Assembly (NCBI GenBank): GCA_965655095.1
Contig: OZ296653.1
Location: forward strand, 36,146,001 to 36,210,000
Direction: 5' to 3'
From: Haplodiscus bocki
Taxonomy: Eukaryota
Length of the DNA stretch: 64,000 nt
Each line of letters opens with the position of its first letter. Within the stretch, counting starts at the first letter, position 1. Shown here in pieces: positions 133 to 62,679 of the stretch. Under the pieces are notes generated by a model, which had not been told where the DNA came from, searched no databases, and was given only the letters and a program-made list of their open reading frames with translations. The position numbers were made by a program, and so were the translations under genes.

Positions 133-2529
133 CGCAGATCTCCTTTCAGGATCACAACACTGCTATACATCTGGACAGTACTTTGCATTGCAAACACCAT
201 ACAGTACTCGACTGTCAATAAACAACAGCTACCGGAATTTGAACGAGGAGCCGCTTTCATCTTTAAATACCAAGTTGTGACTTCCGAAAGTGAGAGCCAA
301 GTCCGACTATTCTCTCCTTTCCCGACGCTCCCAGATGTTAACATTGACAGCGTGCGTGTTATCGTTCACGAAAGCAATGAGAAGCTCTCACACTTGCAAC
401 ACCGCGTCACACAGGCAGGGTGTAATAACAATACGTTCAATGAGTCTCATATACCAGTTTTACAACAAATGGACAACATGTACAATCATCTTAAGACTGA
501 AATTCACGAAGCACAATCTGAACTCAACACTCTGAGTGCCATTGCAAAATCCTTCTTTCCACCAGAATCATCACCGCGAACCTCTGGACAAAGACGTTCA
601 ACTGCTGAGGAAGAACCTCACAACAGAACACGACGGCTCATTGGTGCTGTCGCAGCCCTAGCCGCGGGTACAGGATTCATCTTGGGAGAACCAATTAAAG
701 ATGTAGCATGCAATGCACTCTCCATTTTTAATCTTTGTGATTCTACTGAAGAATTAGAACGAGAACTCGCTCAAGTGACCAAAAAACAAAAGACACAACA
801 ACAGGCATTTCAGATGGTCCAAGATAAGAACAACGAAAAACTTGCATTACTTAGAGACGAAATTCGCCTAACCCAGGAAAGTGTTGAACGAATTAAAAAC
901 GACACCTACCTACGTATCTCGTATATGCTCGAGCGTATATACAGTCTTGAAGATGCGTTTCGATGTTATCAATTCGAAAGTGCGTACCGCCACTTTCTCC
1001 AGTCTTCACAACTGTATTTATCACAAATCGGCACTTTGTACACTCATTTCAAAGCTTTTCGTGCAGCATTTTACGCGTATAGAAACAATTTCTTTTCAAT
1101 CATCTCATCTCTCGCTACTGGACATATCACACCACAATTCCTACTCCCCACTCAACTTGCTACAATAGTACAGGAATTAGCCGCTGAAGAATTTCGGAAA
1201 GGTAGCAAACTGACACCTGCTATACCATCGGGATTCGACGCTATCTATTACGAATTGCAAATCGTACTAGAAGTCACAATGTTACCTAAAGGCATCTCTT
1301 TTGTACTCGGCATTCCAATGAACTCTAAATCCGCGACCTATAATGTTTTCCAAGCCGAACCTCTATACCAACCCAATGACGACGGCAAAACGGCATCACT
1401 TTACCAATTTCCAAAACCCTACGTCGCGATTGCAACAGACAATACGAATTTCGCAGAGTTAGCCGCGTCTACGCTACAACAATGCACGGGCAGTAATCGA
1501 ATCAAACTGTGCCGCAAAGGCTTTTCGACTACTACTGATGAAACGCTTCTCTGTTTGACGTCGTTGTATTTTAATCAAGACATACCAGCACTCCGAAATT
1601 GCCCCGTTTCCTCTGTCTTTCTCCCGGACGCCCCACAGGCAATCTACTTGGCAAACGGCGTCTATCACCTCATTTCACGGCACCCTACAATCGACATTAA
1701 GAACGATAGCCGATCAAATGGACTCAGTTTGTCTACGATCGATTGTCACGCGTGCGTCCTTCGACCAAGTTGTGAAAGTACTCTTTACATCAATCAAGGC
1801 GATCTTGTTCTGTCACCCGATATGGACGCATGTAAAACAACTCCGGAACCGTACATTGCAACAATCAAACTGGCACCACCTTTGAATCAAGTTTTTCAGA
1901 ATGTCCCTTTCGATCGACTTAACTTTCCAAGTTACTCAATCGGTGCCGCTCGGAAATCAATTCTTGAGAGCGTACAATTGGAACTGACTGAAATTCCAGA
2001 CGTTAGACGAATGGACCCAGAAACTTTGCAAAAATTGACAGAACCAATTGTAGCACACTACACGTCTCTCAATCCTGCAACAGAAGCCGCACTTGACAAA
2101 TTTGTACCGGCGAAAACTTCATTCTTAATCGCAGGCGGATCAATCGTACTCTCTTTATTTTTGTTTTTACTTAACTTTCCACTCTTTCACAGACAGGCAC
2201 GTGCACTTTGCTGTGCCCCACGTCGTTTCTTCAAGAATAAATCTGGCCAATTTATTCATGTCACGAACGACATCCAACCAGACTCAGACTCTTCATTTCT
2301 AATTTTGACTCGTGAGGAATTCACTGCACTACGTGCTCTTGCTAAAGAAGCCTTACTGAAGACTGAAGCTAACGCACCGTTTGTTTACTCCGCCGAAGAT
2401 GAAGAAAAACTGTACCCGGACGTCACCGCACCAACCAGAACCATTCGTACAACACCTCCCTTGGTTCTGACCACCTTCACTCCAGCTCCGGTACCTCACG
2501 TCGACACCACACAAACTACATCAGCCTAA
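133..2529 (+). CDS. env: Envelope (class I fusion, baculovirus-F/errantivirus-env/paramyxovirus-F-like) glycoprotein of an LTR retroelement; open frame begins after TAA 130-132, no ATG before the signal peptide
   Basis: Frame is open 133-2529 (track ORF 277-2529 is its GTG-started part). Contains a hydrophobic signal-like segment ITTLLYIWTVLCIANT (151-198), furin site RTRR (625-636) followed directly by a fusion-peptide-like LIGAVAALAAGTGFILG (637-687), a heptad-rich helix (TEELERELAQV...ERIKND), a Cys-rich mid region (LQQCTGSNRIKLC; CLTSLY...RNCPV; CHAC...PSC), N-glycosylation sequons (NNT, NES, NRT, NDT, NDS), a TM segment FLIAGGSIVLSLFLFLLNFPLF (2122-2187), a juxtamembrane CC and a ~110-aa tail. 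Confidence 0.88.
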   Translation, partial: RRSPFRITTLLYIWTVLCIANTIQYSTVNKQQLPEFERGAAFIFKYQVVTSESESQVRLFSPFPTLPDVNIDSVRVIVHESNEKLSHLQHRVTQAGCNNNTFNESHIPVLQQMDNMYNHLKTEIHEAQSELNTLSAIAKSFFPPESSPRTSGQRRSTAEEEPHNRTRRLIGAVAALAAGTGFILGEPIKDVACNALSIFNLCDSTEELERELAQVTKKQKTQQQAFQMVQDKNNEKLALLRDEIRLTQESVERIKNDTYLRISYMLERIYSLEDAFRCYQFESAYRHFLQSSQLYLSQIGTLYTHFKAFRAAFYAYRNNFFSIISSLATGHITPQFLLPTQLATIVQELAAEEFRKGSKLTPAIPSGFDAIYYELQIVLEVTMLPKGISFVLGIPMNSKSATYNVFQAEPLYQPNDDGKTASLYQFPKPYVAIATDNTNFAELAASTLQQCTGSNRIKLCRKGFSTTTDETLLCLTSLYFNQDIPALRNCPVSSVFLPDAPQAIYLANGVYHLISRHPTIDIKNDSRSNGLSLSTIDCHACVLRPSCESTLYINQGDLVLSPDMDACKTTPEPYIATIKLAPPLNQVFQNVPFDRLNFPSYSIGAARKSILESVQLELTEIPDVRRMDPETLQKLTEPIVAHYTSLNPATEAALDKFVPAKTSFLIAGGSIVLSLFLFLLNFPLFHRQARALCCAPRRFFKNKSGQFIHVTNDIQPDSDSSFLILTREEFTALRALAKEALLKTEANAPFVYSAEDEEKLYPDVTAPTRTIRTTPPLVLTTFTPAPVPHVDTTQTTSA

Positions 2530-4875: not shown

Positions 4876-5951
4876 ATAGTTATGAACGAACTTTATCCAT
4901 TCGCAACTCTGAATATTCGATCTCCAACAGTTTCCAGGTATTTTTCGCTCTGAGATAATACATGATTTCAGCTTTGTTTTTTGATTGTCTGTTATTCCTT
5001 TGTTTGATGGTGATATCTGTTTTAGAATCTAAATTACAGCGAATTCAATCTATTTCACCGCCAGATTAGTCGGTCAAATGACGTTGACTCATCAAAATTT
5101 TGTTACCTTCTCGACAAAATAGAACGCGTAAATAATCACAAGCTGCGCCTCAGCCTAAAAGACTGGTTTAAAAACTACTTAGGCAACACATTCATTCTTC
5201 CACCTATTCCACACATTGTGTTTTATACTAGCCTTGCGATTCCCCATTTAGGGAAATGCTTTAGTTCTTCAACTGAACCTCAACCTTACGTTTTATCCCT
5301 CCAATATTTTTCTAATTATCTTGTATCACAAGTGGCTTGCGGAAATACAGCAACATCACCTATGATGTCGGAAAATAGTAAATGGTTGACTTATTGAAAA
5401 GCGAATGTTTTCCTTTTAGTTTTAGAATTTTTGTAACTCGACGCAATGCCTTTTAGCAAAACAGTCACTCTTTTAGTGTGTTTCAATACCTAACCACTTT
5501 TGCTTGGGCGATTAAGATACAAAACGTTTCCGAGAAAGCTATCCAAAACAATTGGACTCTCTGCCGCTGACCTAATCAAATGATGTGTCCTCATCATCAA
5601 GTACTCTTACGTTTCCTTATCCCGAACAAAATAATCGGAACTGGGAGTTCAAAATCCAGAGCTTCACGTTCCACATTCGTTTTTCTCCGACAAAAACAGA
5701 CAACTCTGACGAATTTGTTGTACAAGCATTGTGGGACCTCACATAGAAAACAAGCGAACACATTTTGTTGGAGCGCATTCCAACTCCTCAAGGAGACTCT
5801 GCTCGAGACACTTCTGAGCACATATCACAAGACTGTGGAGTCTTAGGATCCCCATATTGGCTGAAATTCCTTCCTATGAGATAATCTTGTCTTTAAACTG
5901 TCCCACCAAAAGATATCTACAACGAGGAAGCCGCAACATGTAGGAAGAGGT

Positions 5952-6470
5952 TATTATTTGCGTCATGTTTTTAATTATGGAAACAAAATCATCCAGACAA
6001 AGGGGTTGGTTTTTACCCCATTTTTACAAATTGCATTCACGCATGTTAAACCATGTTCGTTCTCGTTTCTTAACATGAAAGTTAGTTTCCACCGAAATGT
6101 AGCAACTTTACCGTAGAATGCGACTAAAATAGTAAGATTTTCCAGAACGTTCAAAATTTGGGTTTTTTGGAAAAAAAAGTAGAGATGTTTTGAAAAAGAA
6201 CTTTCACTTCTTTCAAAATCGCTAAATGTGGCATATTTTTTGTAGAATGCGCATCAAAAGATATCCTTTCTTGAAAATATTTTTCTAAGTTTTTCCACCT
6301 TATTTGTGGGATTTTTGGTTCCAGATTGCAAAATTTTTGAGATAAGAAAATTCGGAAAAAATTATGAAGAAACAGGGTACTTTGAAAAATCCGTTCTCAT
6401 TTTATTAAATTGGCATTTTTATCAAAATGGGAAGGCGCATTTTTTGACGGTTTTAGACGGCCGTCTTGTT
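5952..6470 (+). mobile_element. Non-autonomous Helentron-associated element (HINE, DINE-1-like), copy 1
   Basis: 5' subterminal TATTTGCGTC, 3' inverted GGCGCATTTT followed by a GC-rich stem and GGCCGTCTTGTT; body homologous to 43406-44749. Confidence 0.6.
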
Positions 6471-28187: not shown

Positions 28188-29941
28188 TGTGATGTGTCTC
28201 TTCCTGCTCTGGATCATTTAGGTTAGTGGTGTGACAGGCAGAGAACACCACTTCGGGACAGGGATTGCCTTGGGAAAGATCCCCAGTGGGTTTCCAGTTT
28301 TCTGCAATGTTGTTCCTGGATGTTCCCGGAAGAACTACGGAACAAGTCTGAACTTATGGGTTCAGAAAAAATTCATCGAGTTTAGACAAGGCACCCAAAA
28401 TGCGCGACTCCGTCCGGCTAAATTCTTGGGAAAGTTTTTTAGTGATCCTCCCTTCAATTTCTTCACAAACCTGGTTGATGACCTCTTCAGCCATCCCGGA
28501 TTAAGTGTGTCTTGTGACTGATTGTTCCTTGTATTTTCTGGTGTTTTTCTCGAAACTGCCTCTAACTTTCTTTTTCCTCAGAGTTGCCATGATTCTGAAG
28601 GAAAAGCACTGTCAGTTCTGAAGATTGAATTTTTTTATTTGTAACAAAAAGGTCGATCTCCTCTATTATGAGGGAAAAGTTTCTTCAACAAACGCAAACA
28701 GTTAATGATGTCAAATTTAGTACAATGGCAAAAGGTTACAATTTATAAAACAATAATAGTACTTTCGTTTCTCCTTTTTATACCTTTTCCTTGGCGGGTA
28801 ACATAATTGTTTACACGCCAATTCAAGGTACAAATAGGGAAAAGTACTTCAATCATATTATCTATATAGGAAAAATGCCGACTCTGGCGGGGAAAAACAC
28901 CTCTCCGTCCATTTCTTTTTTCATAGATTGCGTCTTTTCCATCTTTCGACAGAAAAATGTACGGGTCTAATCCGTCAGAAATGGACATCAAAGTGGTTAT
29001 TCCCGCTTGGATACAATAAAATTTAACATAAACAAAAGATCAAAAAGATCTTCCATAGGAGGAAATCACTGAAAAAAGCATCAACCATAAGTAAATTAGA
29101 TAAAAATAAATAAATAAAAAGTACAGATAAAGTTCATGTTTAGATGTGTTTACATGTTGCATCGATTAAAACCACTGCTGGGAACAAAACCAAGTTTCTC
29201 CTAGTCCGTTCCTTATTTCTACTAGCCGGTTCCCCATTTTGGCCGAAGCGTTCCGGAACGACCACGTAACCGCTTGTAGTACTGCTCTCCGCAGTGCTAC
29301 TGAGTAGAATGAAATGGGTGGCTATGTAACCGTTCCATGTTTGTCCAAAATGACACAGCGTAGTAGCATAGCGGATTGGATTAAATTCTAGTGACGTCAC
29401 CAGATTGGTTGCGACGGAACACATACGGAACAAACATTCACTTTTCAAGTCACGCTCTGTATTATAGCTGTACTAAACACTGCAAACTCATTAACACTCT
29501 CGATCTTGATTTAAATTACTGCACAAGGCAATTTCGAAAGGTTGATTTATATATTATTTAACCAAATTAATTATAAAATAGCACCTATTAATGATATAAA
29601 TAAACAGTAGGGAAAGTAAATGAATATCCGTTTGTTCCGTAGTTGCTCCGTCTCAATCCGGATCAGTACACCATAATTCCACGTATAAGATACGTACCTT
29701 TACATGAAGTGAATAATATGGAACGATACGTAACCACTACGTATGGTTTACGTGAATTACATATATGTGCATGGGGTTGATACGTAACTACTACGTGTCA
29801 TTTATGTACAAATAATGAAAATAATGTAATACATATGTATGAAGTTTTCAGTCTTGAGTTTATAGTTTGTTGACGATGAGCCAGCCTGGTGTGTCGGTTC
29901 AGGGATCGACTGTCCACAAACCTCGCAAACGTGCTGCGACA
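28188..29941 (-). mobile_element. Solo LTR (family A, copy B) including the gag 5' end
   Basis: Minus strand TGTCGCAG...CATCACA; TSD GCTTG (28183-28187)/ACTTG (29942-29946); homologous to 38242-39806; ATGGCAACTCTGAGG at 28590 (MATLRKK..., frameshifted). Confidence 0.85.
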
Positions 29942-37050: not shown

Positions 37051-38241
37051 AAAAAATGTGATCTTGTCCAATCCGAATTGACAAAATGGGCAGAAAAAGA
37101 AGTAAACTTACTGAGAGATTGATGCTCCTTTTGTAAAAGATCACAACTGAAAATAACAAGCTTTACAATGCATTATCTATCTAGCAAACATTGAATCGGT
37201 GGCAACTGTCAAATTGAAGTAATAAACCCATAATAAAAGATGGAGAGAAAGCGGCCAAGATATAAATTAACAAATGGTGATCAAAATCAACAAGTTACCT
37301 CAAGGTATCTCAAACTGAAAGATTACGTATGACTTTTGAGGAATCGTCGAAACATGCGTATATGTGGCTGCGTAAGCAATAAAGATATCACATTGGGTCA
37401 ACTATTATAAAGCCATAAAGAAACATGTGGCATCAATACAAGCATTTTAGATGCTTGTCGAAGTAATTGATTTGCGTGATTCTATCGTGAACAATGGTCC
37501 GAGATGGGTGAAACGCACCGGAAGTGGAAACCACGCCATGAAACACGACATTCGGAAAAAAACCCTGAAACTCCTACCTCCTTCCAAACAGAAGCTTCAA
37601 ATGACAATCTAAATAGACCAATAAACACTACATAACCTGTCAAGCACATGTGATTATAGTTACAATGAAACTCAATTGGGAAAACTGTTTACGAATTAAA
37701 AGAACTTGTTACAATTACATCAGCTGTTGGGCTCAAACAGTATTGTAAAAACATGAACTATTCGATCACAAACAAGTTCTGGCTGGTCAAAAAGCTGTTA
37801 CGGGTTTCGCCTTGCAAGGGAGGTGTTGATAGATGCGGTAAAAGTCGGCGAAATCGATCAGAGGAAAGTTTCATATTTTGATCGGTAGTTTTGATCAATC
37901 AAACTAAGAAGATGGGAAAAGCGCCGAAGATTTTGTTTTCTCCATTTGGCTTAAAGTTTGCTGGGCTGGTAGTCCTCCTATAATGATTATTGTAGACCTA
38001 AAATTTGAGTCGATGACTTTTTGATGAATTTCAAGATTGCTGTCTCAAAAATTGGATTGGGTTAAATGTGCAATTGGGTTCAGGGTCAAAATATTACTGT
38101 TTGGCAGGAATTTCAAAGATGTTACAAGGGTCCTGAAAAAGGGTTTTCAGAATCCAGGTATTGTAAAATTCGGAACTGTAAAGAAAATCTGAAAATCTAA
38201 AACTTTTTCAAACTTTTGTGCTTTCTGATTTTGTACAACAC

Positions 38242-39806
38242 TGTCGCAGTATAACCGCGAAGCCTACGTACATTAAGAAAGAAAAGGACATCCCCAGATT
38301 GCCTGAAATTTAGAAGAAACTTTATCAATACTTTAGACTTTTCTATTTCCATTCACATAACAATATTGCAGTAATTTCATTGCTTTTACATGTAGTGGAT
38401 ACGTATCAAACACGTACCACTCCCCAGTATATTTTCATACAAATTCTACGTATTTATACGTAGCACTCCGTGTACTGAACCAGATTGGGACGCAACCTTT
38501 ACGTGGCGAACACGTACCTAACTAGCAGTATTTTGTTACGTGCGCGGTACGTGGCTACCGATCTGGTGACGTCACAAAATTCTCAGCCAATCCGCTGTGC
38601 TTTTGCGCTGTTTCACTTTGGTCGGCTACGTGCGTCTACGTGGCCACCAGATTCATTTCTCCTCAGTAGTACTGCGGAAGGCAGTGCTACAAGCGGCACG
38701 TAGCCGCACGTGCCACCACGGCCAAAGTGTGCCGTAAGCTAGTAAAAACGTGGAACGGGCTAGGAAAACGCCTAGTTTCGTTCCGAAAGTGGATTAAATC
38801 GATGCAGCAGTATTACCAAGCAAGTAATTATGAATTTCTGTGATTATGTTACTGTATTTTAGTTAATTTTACTGCATTTTTCATTACTTTCCTCTTATGG
38901 AAAACCTTTTTGATTACTTGTTTATGTTATTATTTATTGTGTCGGCGGGGGAATAATCACTTCGATATCCATTTCCGACTGATCAGACACGTATATTTTC
39001 CGTCGAAAGATGGAAAAGACGCGGTCTGTAAAGGAAGAAATGGAGGGAAAGTTGTTTATTTCCCGCCAGAGTCGGCATATTTTCTTTGTAATTATTATGA
39101 TTAAAGTACTTTTCCCTACTTTGTACCTTTACTTGGCGTGTAAACAATTATGTTTCCCGCCAATGAAAAGGTATAAATAGGAGAAACGAAAGTACTAGGA
39201 GGAGATCCTTAATATCACTTTGTATATCAGTTGACTGTACTGATTGCGACTAGTTGTTTATTTTAAAGAATAACATTTTGTTATAATCTCAAGTTTATTA
39301 ACAAATACAAAATAATTCAGTCTTCAGAACTGCGTAGCATTTTCCCTTCAAAAAGATGGCAACGTTGAGAAACAAACGAAAGTTGGCAGCCGTTACAAGA
39401 GAAACACAAGAGGAAAATCCTAGGAACGGCCAGTCACGAAACACGTCCGTTCCTAGAATTAACGAGGAATATATCACACAAGTTTCTGAGGAGATTGAAG
39501 GCAGAGTCAGTAAAAAACTGTCCCAGGAGTTCAGCAGGACAGAGTCCCGCATTTTGGGTGCTCTGTCTAAATTAGACGAATTTCTCTTGAACCAACAGAT
39601 ACGGACGCATTCCGAAACCGTTCCGGGAACATTCCGGAACATAAACGTGGAAAACCAGGGAACGAATGAGGACGACTCCCAGAGTGATCCTCATCCTGAA
39701 GTGGGACCCTCCGTCTGTCAATCCCGTCATTCAATTGACTCAGACACAGGCGAGACTCATGACACGATGACAGGAGTTATAGAACAGACTTCCAAGGGTC
39801 CTCACA
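38242..39806 (+). mobile_element. Solo LTR (family A, copy A) including the first 150 codons of gag
   Basis: TGTCGCAG...CCTCACA with perfect 5-bp TSD AACAC (38237-38241 and 39807-39811); homologous to 28188-29941 (rc) and 41155-42788. Confidence 0.92.
38940..39180 (+). promoter_or_regulatory. LTR promoter module: E2F-like sites, forkhead site, TATA
   Basis: GGCGGGGGAA 38944, TTTCCCGCC 39059-39067 and 39153-39161, GTAAACA 39140-39146, TATAAAT 39172-39178; CRE TGACGTCA and CCAAT further upstream (~38566-38591); conserved in copies B and C. Confidence 0.6.
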
Positions 39807-39817
39807 AACACAAATGA
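39356..39817 (+). CDS. gag: Truncated gag-like N-terminus (MATLRNKRKLAAV...) carried inside a solo LTR; last codons and stop come from flanking DNA
   Basis: 153-aa ATG ORF; homologous starts at 28590 (-) and 42383 (+); the LTR ends at 39806. The gag assignment is inferred from position behind the LTR promoter. Confidence 0.6.
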   Translation: MATLRNKRKLAAVTRETQEENPRNGQSRNTSVPRINEEYITQVSEEIEGRVSKKLSQEFSRTESRILGALSKLDEFLLNQQIRTHSETVPGTFRNINVENQGTNEDDSQSDPHPEVGPSVCQSRHSIDSDTGETHDTMTGVIEQTSKGPHKHK

Positions 39818-41154: not shown

Positions 41155-42788
41155 TGTTGCAACACACCTGCGAAGCCTGCGGTCAACCCTTGCCTGCAAA
41201 AAAAACGTCTCAAGACTCAAAATGAACCTCAGACTTCCATCTTTGATTTATTAACACTCATATATATTTACAATTATTGTACATGTAAGCTGATCGGTAT
41301 TATGTACAGATCACCCTATTGAACTGATGCAGACTAGGATGGAACTGTTAAAGAACAAATGAACCTGCACAGAGCTTTACCATTACAAAGGTGCAATTTT
41401 TTTGAAAATTTTTTTGAATTTAATGTAAAACCACCTTTATGTGCGATTAATTTGATTGCCTGCAATAAAAGATGTTTAGGACAGTGCAGTCTATTACTTG
41501 AGCTAGATTAACAGCATGACTAAAACCAACATGGAAAACTCCAAGAGTGAATTTTTGTTCCGTACTTGTTCCGTCGCTACTAGTCTGGTGACGTCTTAAC
41601 AATTCCGATCACTCGGTGACGCCGTAATACTACACTGAATAAGGAGTCAATCCGTATCCGCTCCTACTTTGTGCTTAACTTGAATGACTTTAACTGTCAC
41701 TACTAGTTGATACGAATAATCTCCGGAGACTACTAGTAGCTACTGGCCAGAACGAGGAGCAAACTAGTAGAGCGACTAATTTCTCCCCATTTATGGCAAT
41801 GACTACCGATGCATTAATGAAAACACTACACAAGAGATGTCATAAATACTTTCACTTTTATCATCAATTTTTGTTTTTTTTTCCATAGATGCTGCAAAAA
41901 TCAACAACTCTTCATTTTTTCAGATTAGGGATGCAATTAATTTTTGCAATCATGGAATGTACACTATTTTCCTTGTAAAAAAAAGTCGGCGCGGGAATAA
42001 GCACTTTGATGTCCAATTCTGACGGATTAAGTCTGTCTTTTTTCTGTGGAAAGATGGAAATGACGCGTCCTATGAAGAAAAGGACGGATAAAAAAGGTGT
42101 TTCCTTCCCGCCAGAATCGTCATTTCCGATTTGTAAGTTGTAAATGAAAGTACTTTTCCCTATTTGTACATTGACTTGGCGCGTAAACATTTATGTTTCC
42201 CGCCAAAGAAATAGTATAAACAGGAAAAATAAGTGCAAAAACAGAACAAATAATTGTATTAATGCTGTAACGCTGTTATTGTCTTTCCTGAAAATTTGAC
42301 TCTGCCATGTTTCCCAACTTTTACAAATTAATAATTTTCATTTCTGTCCTAATACTTTGGTGACTTTTTACCCTCTTCAAATATGGCAACTCTGAGGAAA
42401 CTAGGAAATTTAACAGCCATCAGCAAAGGTATTCTTGAAGATTATGCCAGGAATGATCAGGCTCGAAACACAAATTTTCTGTGAATTCAGGAAGATTATA
42501 TTACTCAGGTGTCAGAAAAAAATTGGGGATAGAGTGACAAGAAGAACTGTCTCAGGAGTTCTGTAGGACAGAAAGTCGCATTTTGGGCCCCTAATCAAGA
42601 CTAGGAGAACTTCATCTGAGCCCACAAGCCCGAGTTCACTCCAGGTCCGTTCATGAGACATCACGGATTTCAAACAGAAAAAAAAACAGGGAGCAAATGA
42701 GGACCGCTCCCAGAACGATCCTCATCCTGATGTGGGTGTCTCTCTAAACCAATCCACACAGGATATAAGCCAGAAAAAACGCCTTACA
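41155..42788 (+). mobile_element. Solo LTR (family A, copy C) including the gag 5' end
   Basis: TGTTGCAACACACCTGCGAAGCC aligns with the copy A start; promoter block 41.95-42.23 kb homologous; ATGGCAACTCTGAGG at 42383; ends CCTTACA at the homologous position. TSD not recognisable. Confidence 0.75.
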
Positions 42789-43405: not shown

Positions 43406-44749
43406 TATTTTGCGCCATATTTACATTTATAAATTATAGGAGCAAAGTCTTCCTTTCAAATGGTCCGTTTTTTAACCGATGTTTGCTATTTGCGTTAACG
43501 ATGTTCATTCACGTTCCTTAAAGTCAGTTTTTTCACTAAATTGAAACCTATTCGCCGGTGAGAGCGACTGAAGTAGTAAGATTTTTCAAAACGTTCAAAC
43601 TTTGAAAAAAGAAGAGTTTTTCCAAGAAAAACCTGATTTTTTCGACTTCGTTAAAAGTGGCAAATTTGCTGCAGAAGGAGTATATATTGGTATGATTTCC
43701 TAAAAATGTCTTCTCTTCTCTAATTATGAAGTTTTTTGGCATCAAATTAGAAACTTTTCAACTTTGGAAAAATTAAAAAATATGATGAAAAAGAAGTGAA
43801 TCTTCAAGAAAAAAACGTGAATGTTAAATTTCTGAATGTGAACTTTTGTCATCGAATTTTAACAAATTTGTTGCAGAATGCGACTGAAAAAGTGAGATTT
43901 CCCAAGACGTTCAACATTTGGATTTTTTAAGAAATAGAAATGGGTTTTTCGAAAAAAAAATCTAGAATTTTTTGAGAATCGCTAAAGGTAGCAAATTCGC
44001 GCGAATGGGTATTAAATGGTAATATTTCTTAAAAATGTCTTTTCTGCCCTAATTATGAGGTTTTTAAGGCAAAAAATTAGAAAATTTTGAACGTTGGAAA
44101 AATTAGAATTTATAATGAAGAAAGAGTGTTTTTTTTCGAGGAAAAAATGTTTGCATCTTTTAAAATTGCATTTTTACCAAATTGGGAAGCCGCAAAATAT
44201 GAGGGTGGTAATCGGCCGTCTTGTTATTTTGCGCTATCTTCTTAAGAATATGAAAGCAAAATCTTCCACTCAAACGGGCCATTCTCGACGTTTTCTTTTT
44301 ACCCGATGTTTGCCAATTACGTTCACACCACATCGGCAAATATGTTCACGCTACTGAACGTGAAAACATTTTTCAACCAAATTGTAGCGAATTTACCGAA
44401 GATATCTTCTGAAATAGTAAGACTCCTCAAAACGTTCGAAATTTGGGTCTTTTTTGAAAAAATAGATGGTTTTTTCGAAAACAAAACTTGAATTTTTCCC
44501 GAAACCCTAAAGATGGCAAATTTGCTGTAGAATGCGTATCAAATGGTTTTATGTCTTAAAAATGGCAATTCCACCCTAATCATGAGGCTTTTTTAGCAAA
44601 AGTTAGAAAACTTTGAACATGGGAGAAATTAGAAAATATGATGAAGAAAGAGTGTTTTTTCGAAAAAAAAAACGTTTTCATCTTCTTCAAAGCCTTCTTT
44701 ACAGAAATGGGAGGCGCAAATTATGCCACTGGCAGCCGGCCGTCTTGTT
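43406..44749 (+). mobile_element. Two head-to-tail HINE copies (43406-44225, 44225-44749)
   Basis: Each starts TATTTTGCGC and ends G(C/G)CGCAAA(A/T)TATG + stem + GGCCGTCTTGTT; the first has an internal duplication of the core. Confidence 0.7.
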
Positions 44750-45111
44750 GTATATGCAATCGGAGGGGACTCGTCTACCGACCCAGGCAGTATCCATTGC
44801 CAGAACCACGTTGATCTAACGAGGTTATTACCGGTGCCTTTGGTAGTACGTTTCCTGATTGTCCCGTGATCGAACTGTCCACTGGAACAATACTGAACGT
44901 GAAAACTTCAAAAATGAACGATGACATAGAAAAAAGGTGTTACACTTTCCTTTATTAGGTTTTCCAGGCCTTTAAAGTGTAATTTTTACCATCTCTTCTT
45001 CTTTCTTCAGCAAAACCTTACTTTTACACTGAAGCTTCTCTAACTTTTCAAACATGCAGAGTGTTTTGGCAAATCGAGTGTAATTGAAGCACTTTAATTT
45101 GAGCTAATATT

Positions 45112-62299: not shown

Positions 62300-62679
62300 T
62301 TATTTTCAGCGCAATTTTATGATATAAAAGGAAAATCATCCTCTGAACGCGCGTGTAATTTTTTTCCGAATGTCCGGTCGATTCTAAAATTGAAAAACTT
62401 TTAGCACGAACTTACAGCCAATTTGCCATTGAATGAAATTGAAATAATAAGTTTCTCAAATATTTACAAAATTAGGGGTTTTTTTGAAAAACAAGAAGTT
62501 TTTTTGAAGAAAAGTTTGAATGCTTCCATAATCTGTAAAGGTGGCAAATTTGCTGTAAAATTCATATCAAATAATATTTTTTGTTAAAAATTGGAAGATT
62601 TGATGAAAAAAAATTTCTTGAAGGCATCTCCATCAAAATTAGAGGGCGGAAAGTTGCCAGTGGTACCCGGCGTCTTGTC
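62300..62679 (+). mobile_element. Degraded HINE copy
   Basis: Core TAAAGGTGGCAAATTTGCTGTA.AAT as at 44510-44535; 3' end GGGCGGAAA...CCGGCGTCTTGT. Confidence 0.55.

What the first reader, a model, noticed from the sequence alone, without database searches (positions are those of the whole stretch)
39765..39806. LTR end extended by one 42-nt, frame-preserving, PBS-like unit
Seen: copy A aligns to the ends of copies B and C at 39764 (ACTCATGACA vs ACACATCACA vs ACGCCTTACA) but continues 42 nt (14 codons) to a second end CCTCACA. The extension starts CGATGACAGGAGTT, 10/14 identical to a tRNA-Leu-type PBS (TGGTGTCAGGAGTG, vertebrate sequence). Inference: att+PBS was duplicated in tandem, the upstream PBS decayed, and priming moved downstream, so U5 grows stepwise into gag. 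This ratchet could explain how the LTR came to contain the ORF.
Basis: partly seen in the sequence, partly recalled or inferred. Interest (0 to 1): 0.75.

Follow-up and report, generated by a model that had tools for sequence, protein, structure and literature searches.

The report
Retrotransposon with tandem primer sites
The 42 flagged bases are a worn-out copy of the tRNA primer site of a jumping gene whose protein-coding region carries up to seven such sites in a row, and inserted copies show that the element's end repeat can stop at different sites, likely because copying sometimes starts at a later site, which in some lineages has become the permanent end.

Summary
Confirmed and extended. 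38242-39806 is a solo LTR (5-bp TSD) of a Ty3/Gypsy family primed by host tRNA-Leu(CAG). The 42-nt unit matches that tRNA at 11 of 13 bases, is present in 100 of 100 listed LTRs of this subfamily, and is absent from the ends of the sister lineages in which the subfamily nests. Gag starts inside the LTR and reads through an in-frame array of 1-7 [PBS + spacer + att-like CA end] units; 119 of 125 spacings are multiples of 3. Five full-length relatives with perfect TSDs carry extra units, with the inner PBS still intact or nearly so, in both LTRs: the product expected from priming at a later PBS. This is rare (about 2-3% of ends, none seen in this subfamily). Two other lineages also hold a dead unit inside the LTR. 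Ten literature searches found no natural PBS array. The scan noted a similar, non-coding case in another genome (e1-9523320).

The parts
38237..38241 (+). left target-site duplication AACAC
38242..39806 (+). solo LTR (copy A), TG...CA, 1565 nt, of a young gag-only Ty3/Gypsy subfamily
   Evidence: LTR pairs of 9 relatives 94-99.6% identical
39172..39177 (+). TATA-like box, candidate promoter (untested)
   Evidence: block shared by A, B, C
39356..39806 (+). LTR-encoded N-terminal part of gag (136 codons before the unit, then the unit); in full elements it reads on through the PBS array into the capsid region
39758..39764 (+). former att end (CATGACA), the LTR end still used by sister lineages
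   Evidence: L130, L134 with perfect TSD
39765..39777 (+). decayed PBS for tRNA-Leu(CAG); positions 1 and 3, which pair with the tRNA's CCA, are changed
   Evidence: intact at the same place in L166
39765..39806 (+). 42-nt unit (PBS + spacer + att), 14 codons, homologous to the internal array units
39800..39806 (+). current att end CCTCACA; followed by the working PBS in 5' LTRs
39807..39811 (+). right target-site duplication AACAC
28188..29941 (-). copy C, solo LTR of an older subfamily ending at the -42 position; TSD 4/5
41543..42788 (+). copy B, old decayed LTR (alignable part); end not confirmed by a TSD

Best explanation
The 42 nt are a former primer-site unit (tRNA-Leu PBS, spacer, att-like CA end) of a tandem in-frame array inside gag, which likely entered the LTR when reverse transcription was primed at the next PBS and likely became permanent when the inner PBS lost its pairing with the tRNA's CCA. 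Shown: the array, its 3n spacing, the primer identity, integrated elements whose two LTRs both end one or more units later, the decayed inner site in all listed copies of this subfamily, and the derived position of that subfamily in the tree. Inferred from the standard scheme of reverse transcription: everything 5' of the primed PBS is copied into minus-strand strong-stop DNA and so into both LTRs; because each unit ends in SACA the longer end is still an integrase substrate; the transcript is the same whichever site is used, so the shift is heritable only once the inner site is disabled. Inferred origin of units: short duplications across the LTR/PBS junction, some made by misplaced plus-strand transfer of the tRNA copy, kept only when the gag frame survives. 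The process adds one or two units per lineage and does not account for the rest of the LTR-encoded ORF.
For: Primer: host tRNA-Leu(CAG) ends in the complement of the PBS; 32 genomic sites have an LTR-type end followed by 16 or more bases of tRNA complement beginning with TGG, up to 46-47 nt in L152 and L153. Array: 65 distinct 5' junctions hold 1-7 PBS-like sites, 119 of 125 spacings are 3n; 120 of 120 database Gags show 1-6 strict [HDY]MVT motifs. Later-site ends: of 28 fetched candidates 17 have a perfect 5-bp TSD at the extended end, 5 have 4/5, 5 are unconfirmed, 1 was internal. Of 6 extended 3' LTRs whose 5' side was fetched, 5 have a matching extended 5' LTR, a further PBS behind it and a perfect TSD. 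Polarity: 12 subfamily-A rows form one group (96/87) inside sister rows that end at -42; L166 has an intact PBS at the same place, 23 of the first 25 nt identical. Fixation: 100 of 100 listed A LTRs carry the unit; 18 of 18 lack PBS positions 1 and 3. Repeats of the event: a 24-nt truncated-PBS unit in 100 of 100 listed LTRs of a 379-LTR subfamily; a 33-nt decayed unit in L128/L129/L061 that L153 lacks. Unit birth: L150 has a 42-nt unit made of 18 nt of tRNA copy plus 24 nt of LTR-end-type sequence; L109 has a 105-nt one.
Against: No reverse-transcription intermediate or RNA was observed; all evidence is from integrated DNA. Later-site ends are rare: 2 of 58 right ends in one subfamily and 2 of 84 in another, one of them without TSD, counted by eye from the first 100 rows; none among 44 junctions of the window's own subfamily, about 28 of which have a second PBS-like site (80 nt shown). 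In 7 of 7 arrays examined the tRNA imprint sits on the first PBS. Two elements are asymmetric, the 3' LTR holding a unit that the 5' side lacks (L141/L142 with perfect TSD, L096 with 4/5), which the simple scheme does not predict. The order 'priming shift, then decay' versus 'decay, then shift' is not resolved. The unit looks like a hybrid of two units (start as in L166, end 37/42 to the second unit of L107). Candidates were picked by a pattern fixed at 42 nt, and 19 of 45 hits were set aside by eye as internal or duplicate.
Confidence: 0.85

Rival explanations
1. Neutral coding minisatellite: the array grows and shrinks by DNA-level slippage or unequal exchange after integration, and extended LTR ends are recombination products, not products of later priming.
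For: Near-identical adjacent units (L148, L154, L092); asymmetric elements L141/L142 and L096; first PBS is clearly preferred.
Against: Five elements have the extra unit in both LTRs with a perfect TSD at the extended end, and 13 more fetched loci have perfect TSDs there; slippage next to a 5' LTR cannot place a unit at the 3' LTR end. Slippage may still drive copy-number change within arrays.
Confidence: 0.1
2. Full ratchet: repeated rounds of duplication, decay and downstream priming walked the LTR end through gag and so put the whole N-terminal ORF in the LTR.
For: At least three lineages fixed a unit separately; L107 and L113 hold two units in the LTR; old units could have decayed beyond recognition.
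Against: No PBS remnant above chance in the other ~1500 nt of LTR A, or in B or C; the ancestral end lies 20-26 codons after a shared DPxPE motif across subfamilies about 70% identical; the process adds copies of the junction, not unique gag sequence; Gags at 39-46% identity (P0165, P0207, P0212, P0181) have about 110-195 unrelated residues before one MVTG.
Confidence: 0.1
3. The array is selected as a functional device (several primer-loading sites, insurance against PBS mutation, or a decoy for 3' tRNA fragments), and LTR extension is a by-product.
For: Middle units keep the 12-nt PBS exactly in 32 of 59 cases, as often as first units (31 of 48), while spacers diverge to about 62%; arrays occur in families only about 45% alike in Gag. 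3'-tRF targeting of PBSs is described for mouse ERVs (PMC7472051, section 4.3 read).
Against: 11 of 65 junctions have a single PBS-like site and 155-LTR and 195-LTR subfamilies spread with few units; recent duplication and protein constraint could also keep the PBS letters; no RNA data.
Confidence: 0.3

Closest known systems
Ty3/Gypsy (Metaviridae) LTR retrotransposons
   Same: TG...CA LTRs, 5-bp TSD, PPT, tRNA-complementary PBS, gag with a CCHC knuckle, PR-RT-RH-IN order in autonomous relatives.
   Different: Gag starts in the LTR; 1-7 att+PBS units in frame; LTR end varies by whole units; the window's subfamily is gag-only.
Yeast Ty1 (PMC4974528, passages read)
   Same: PBS lies inside the GAG ORF.
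   Different: Ty1 is Copia, uses tRNAiMet and one (bipartite) PBS; no tandem att+PBS array is described in the passages read.
Engineered retroviral vectors with two PBSs (Voronin and Pathak 2004, PMC400373; title seen only in reference lists of PMC3902901 and PMC4227088)
   Same: By its title, initiation can occur at either of two PBSs.
   Different: Artificial, two sites; here natural, up to seven, coding, each with an att-like end, and fixed over evolutionary time. Paper not read.
Scan note e1-9523320 (another genome, unchecked AI note)
   Same: LTRs carrying extra 'LTR end + PBS' modules read as former primer sites.
   Different: That element is described as non-coding; here the units are translated, variable, and intermediates with intact inner PBS and TSDs are shown.

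Membership tests
Ty3/Gypsy LTR retrotransposon | LTRs TG...CA flanked by 4-6 bp TSD | tested here: met
   window copy and relatives, 5-bp TSD
Ty3/Gypsy LTR retrotransposon | PBS complementary to a host tRNA 3' end next to the 5' LTR; PPT before the 3' LTR | tested here: met
Ty3/Gypsy LTR retrotransposon | pol order PR-RT-RH-IN | tested here: met
   in 13.7-14.5 kb relatives that share the LTR termini, PBS and gag family; not in the window's own subfamily
Ty3/Gypsy LTR retrotransposon | RT phylogeny within Ty3/Gypsy, assignment to a named clade | not tested
   no RT tree built; BEL/Pao shares the domain order and was judged less likely only from the single CCHC knuckle (criterion recalled)
Autonomous element (window's subfamily) | encodes pol | tested here: not met
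   9 elements of 5.6-6.8 kb period show gag but no long pol-like ORF; the 8 non-gag ORFs scanned gave no pol domain
Ty1/Copia | IN before RT | tested here: not met
Functional PBS (the flagged unit) | pairs with the tRNA's 3' CCA and marks an LTR end | tested here: not met
   positions 1 and 3 changed in 18 of 18; 0 of 100 listed A LTRs end there
Alternative priming at downstream PBS | minus-strand strong-stop DNA starting at a later PBS | not testable with these tools
   only integrated products seen

The most novel reading that the evidence does not exclude
A Gypsy clade has a self-amplifying primer-site array: reverse transcriptase itself makes and shuffles att+PBS units by misplaced plus-strand transfer, gag reading frame filters them, and the array is kept because it multiplies tRNA loading or buffers tRNA-fragment silencing, so that the LTR boundary is a movable, heritable trait rather than a fixed one.
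Probability: 0.3. Interest if true: 0.8.

Novelty: new variant of a known kind. Interest (0 to 1): 0.62.

Why it matters
LTR boundaries are treated as fixed by one PBS. Here a natural family shows every stage of a boundary shift in one genome: arrays, rare later-site ends with TSDs, symmetric LTR pairs, and separate fixations. It gives a countable in vivo readout of PBS choice (first site preferred, later sites at a few percent), a route by which U5 lengthens, and tRNA imprints that mark the site used. It also warns that LTR and PBS annotation in such families is ambiguous.

Tried and rejected
Scan for older PBS remnants upstream in A, B, C: nothing above chance. Search for later-site ends in the window's own subfamily: none among 44 junction hits or 9 fetched unpaired junctions L084-L092; L032 and L083 turned out to be tandem elements continuing into gag. 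A pattern for decayed units in a further subfamily had a wrong spacing and found nothing; it was not repeated. RNA fold of the junction: not more stable than shuffles, z -1.3. No RNA holder listed. TSD for copy B not found. 5' LTR of L109 not found. Literature: ten searches returned no description of natural tandem att+PBS arrays, judged from listings; one search used a guessed host group and the host was not established. The library lacks most subscription papers and repeat-database entries, so this is not proof of novelty. No supplements were consulted. Scan notes: none for this genome or this protein.

Full report
Observation. The window holds three related repeats. Copy A begins TGTCGCAG at 38242 and ends CCTCACA at 39806, flanked by AACAC on both sides, so it is a solo LTR whose true end is the end of the flagged unit. 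An ORF starts at 39356 and runs through the unit. Copy C (28188-29941, minus) ends at the position homologous to 39764 with a 4/5 TSD; copy B aligns the same way but has no TSD support.

The unit is a subfamily trait. A search of the own genome gave 40 scored matches of 1163 candidates; all 29 other loci fetched end at the 39806 equivalent. A pattern anchored upstream of the unit found 155 LTRs, and 100 of 100 listed run on into the unit with a decayed start. A sister pattern found 198 LTRs; of 100 listed, 82 are followed by flank and 18 by a PBS-like start at the -42 position (counted by eye); L130 and L134 end there with perfect TSDs. In a tree of 65 LTR stretches taken upstream of the unit, the 12 subfamily-A rows form one group (96/87) inside the sister rows, midpoint root, older subfamilies outside. 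L166 and L167 carry a 42-nt-type unit at the same place with an intact or one-off PBS. The longer LTR is therefore the derived state.

The primer. 5' LTRs are followed directly by TGGTGACAGGAG. The genome has 709 matches to a tRNA 3' end with this complement; ARAGORN called 2 of 10 fetched loci tRNA-Leu(CAG) and nothing in the other 8. The unit matches tRNA+CCA at 11 of 13 bases; the two changes hit the CCA-pairing positions in 18 of 18 copies examined. 32 sites show an LTR-type end followed by at least 16 nt of tRNA complement; in the 8 fetched the match is 17-18 nt in six and 46-47 nt in two. As the CCA is not in the gene, these are copies of the RNA primer (standard retroviral scheme; PMC7472051, passages and section 4.3 read, states that HIV and MLV copy the primer tRNA during second-strand synthesis, and also that Ty1 and Ty3 inherit their own PBS instead, so this family behaves in the retroviral way at least at times).

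The array. Behind the first PBS lie further units of PBS, spacer and SACA end, in gag frame. In 65 distinct 5' junctions there are 1-7 PBS-like sites and 119 of 125 spacings are multiples of 3 (21, 24, 27, 30, 42, 51, 54). The sample is biased towards 42 nt by my patterns, but the other 3n lengths were not all demanded by them. All 120 listed database Gags show the repeat as 1-6 strict [HDY]MVT motifs. The flagged unit is homologous to these units beyond its PBS.

Later-site LTR ends. A pattern for PBS + 26 nt + SACA + purine gave 45 hits. I fetched 26 of them and 2, setting aside 19 as internal or duplicate by eye. Of the 28, 17 have a perfect TSD at the extended end, 5 have 4/5, 5 are unconfirmed and 1 was internal. 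Of 6 extended 3' LTRs whose upstream side was fetched, 5 (L094, L110, L114, L115, L147) have a 5' LTR 97-99% identical that includes the same extra unit or units, then another PBS, with a perfect TSD. This is the product expected if the tRNA primes at a later PBS. It is rare: 2 of 58 and 2 of 84 right ends in two subfamilies, none among 44 junctions of subfamily A, and the tRNA imprint is on the first PBS in 7 of 7 arrays examined. Against the simple scheme, L141/L142 and L096 have a unit in the 3' LTR that the 5' side lacks.

Separate fixations. A 379-LTR subfamily carries a 24-nt unit with a truncated PBS inside the LTR in 100 of 100 listed copies. A distant family has a 33-nt decayed unit that its relative L153 lacks. 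L150 and L109 show units made of a tRNA copy joined to LTR-end-type sequence, 42 and 105 nt, which suggests one way units are born.

What fails. The claim that this ratchet put the ORF into the LTR. Outside the unit the best PBS-like match in LTR A is 9/14, reached or passed by 274 of 300 shuffles. Distant Gags (39-46% identity) have about 110-195 unrelated residues before a single MVTG, and one is called from the MVTG itself (DNA not seen). The att CA and the PBS together spell an in-frame ATG, so a simpler inference is that the ORF extended upstream into U5 from that junction before arrays arose.

Classification. Relatives of 13.7-14.5 kb encode PR-RT-RH-IN: Ty3/Gypsy by domain order, no RT tree made. 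The window's subfamily is gag-only. Ty1 has its PBS inside GAG (PMC4974528, passages read). Dual initiation in engineered two-PBS vectors is known by title only (reference lists). Ten searches (listings only) found no natural att+PBS array. The scan has one similar unchecked note in another genome, which I count as a lead, not support.

Verdict. Real, mechanistically well supported, new variant of a known kind; interest 0.62.

Noticed in passing
L031:6279-6779; L032:2511-2963 (minus): Gag-only elements carry different host-gene-like pieces in place of pol: an Ig-like stretch (E 0.002) and a GTP_EFTU-like stretch (E 3e-5), both below Pfam's curated cut-off.
   Followed up: partly
L129:2664-4649, 471-1736 (minus); L125:607-1770 (minus): Autonomous 13.7-14.5 kb relatives have long antisense ORFs (up to 662 aa) after pol with no Pfam match.
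   Followed up: partly
G000:C1:161094516 onward: Long tandem array, period about 424 bp, of a tRNA-Leu-type 3' end; most of the 709 matches may lie here.
   Followed up: no
L143; G000:C4:57283875-57296243: A 2.4-kb element in which 18 nt of tRNA copy joins straight to unrelated internal sequence, with perfect TSD; a similar junction is tandemly repeated at about 2.46 kb on C4.
   Followed up: partly
G000:C5327:316-391; G000:C12:26702017: An LTR end joined through a tRNA copy to an LTR start (circle-junction-like), and an imprint that departs from tRNA-Leu(CAG) after about 28 nt, perhaps another Leu tRNA.
   Followed up: no
window 39060-39170: TTCCCGCC-type motifs just upstream of the TATA-like box, shared by A, B and C; they resemble E2F sites (motif recalled, not tested).
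   Followed up: no
window 133-2529; 5950-6470, 43430-44750, 62400-62600: A 798-aa ORF and a separate dispersed repeat family were not examined.
   Followed up: no
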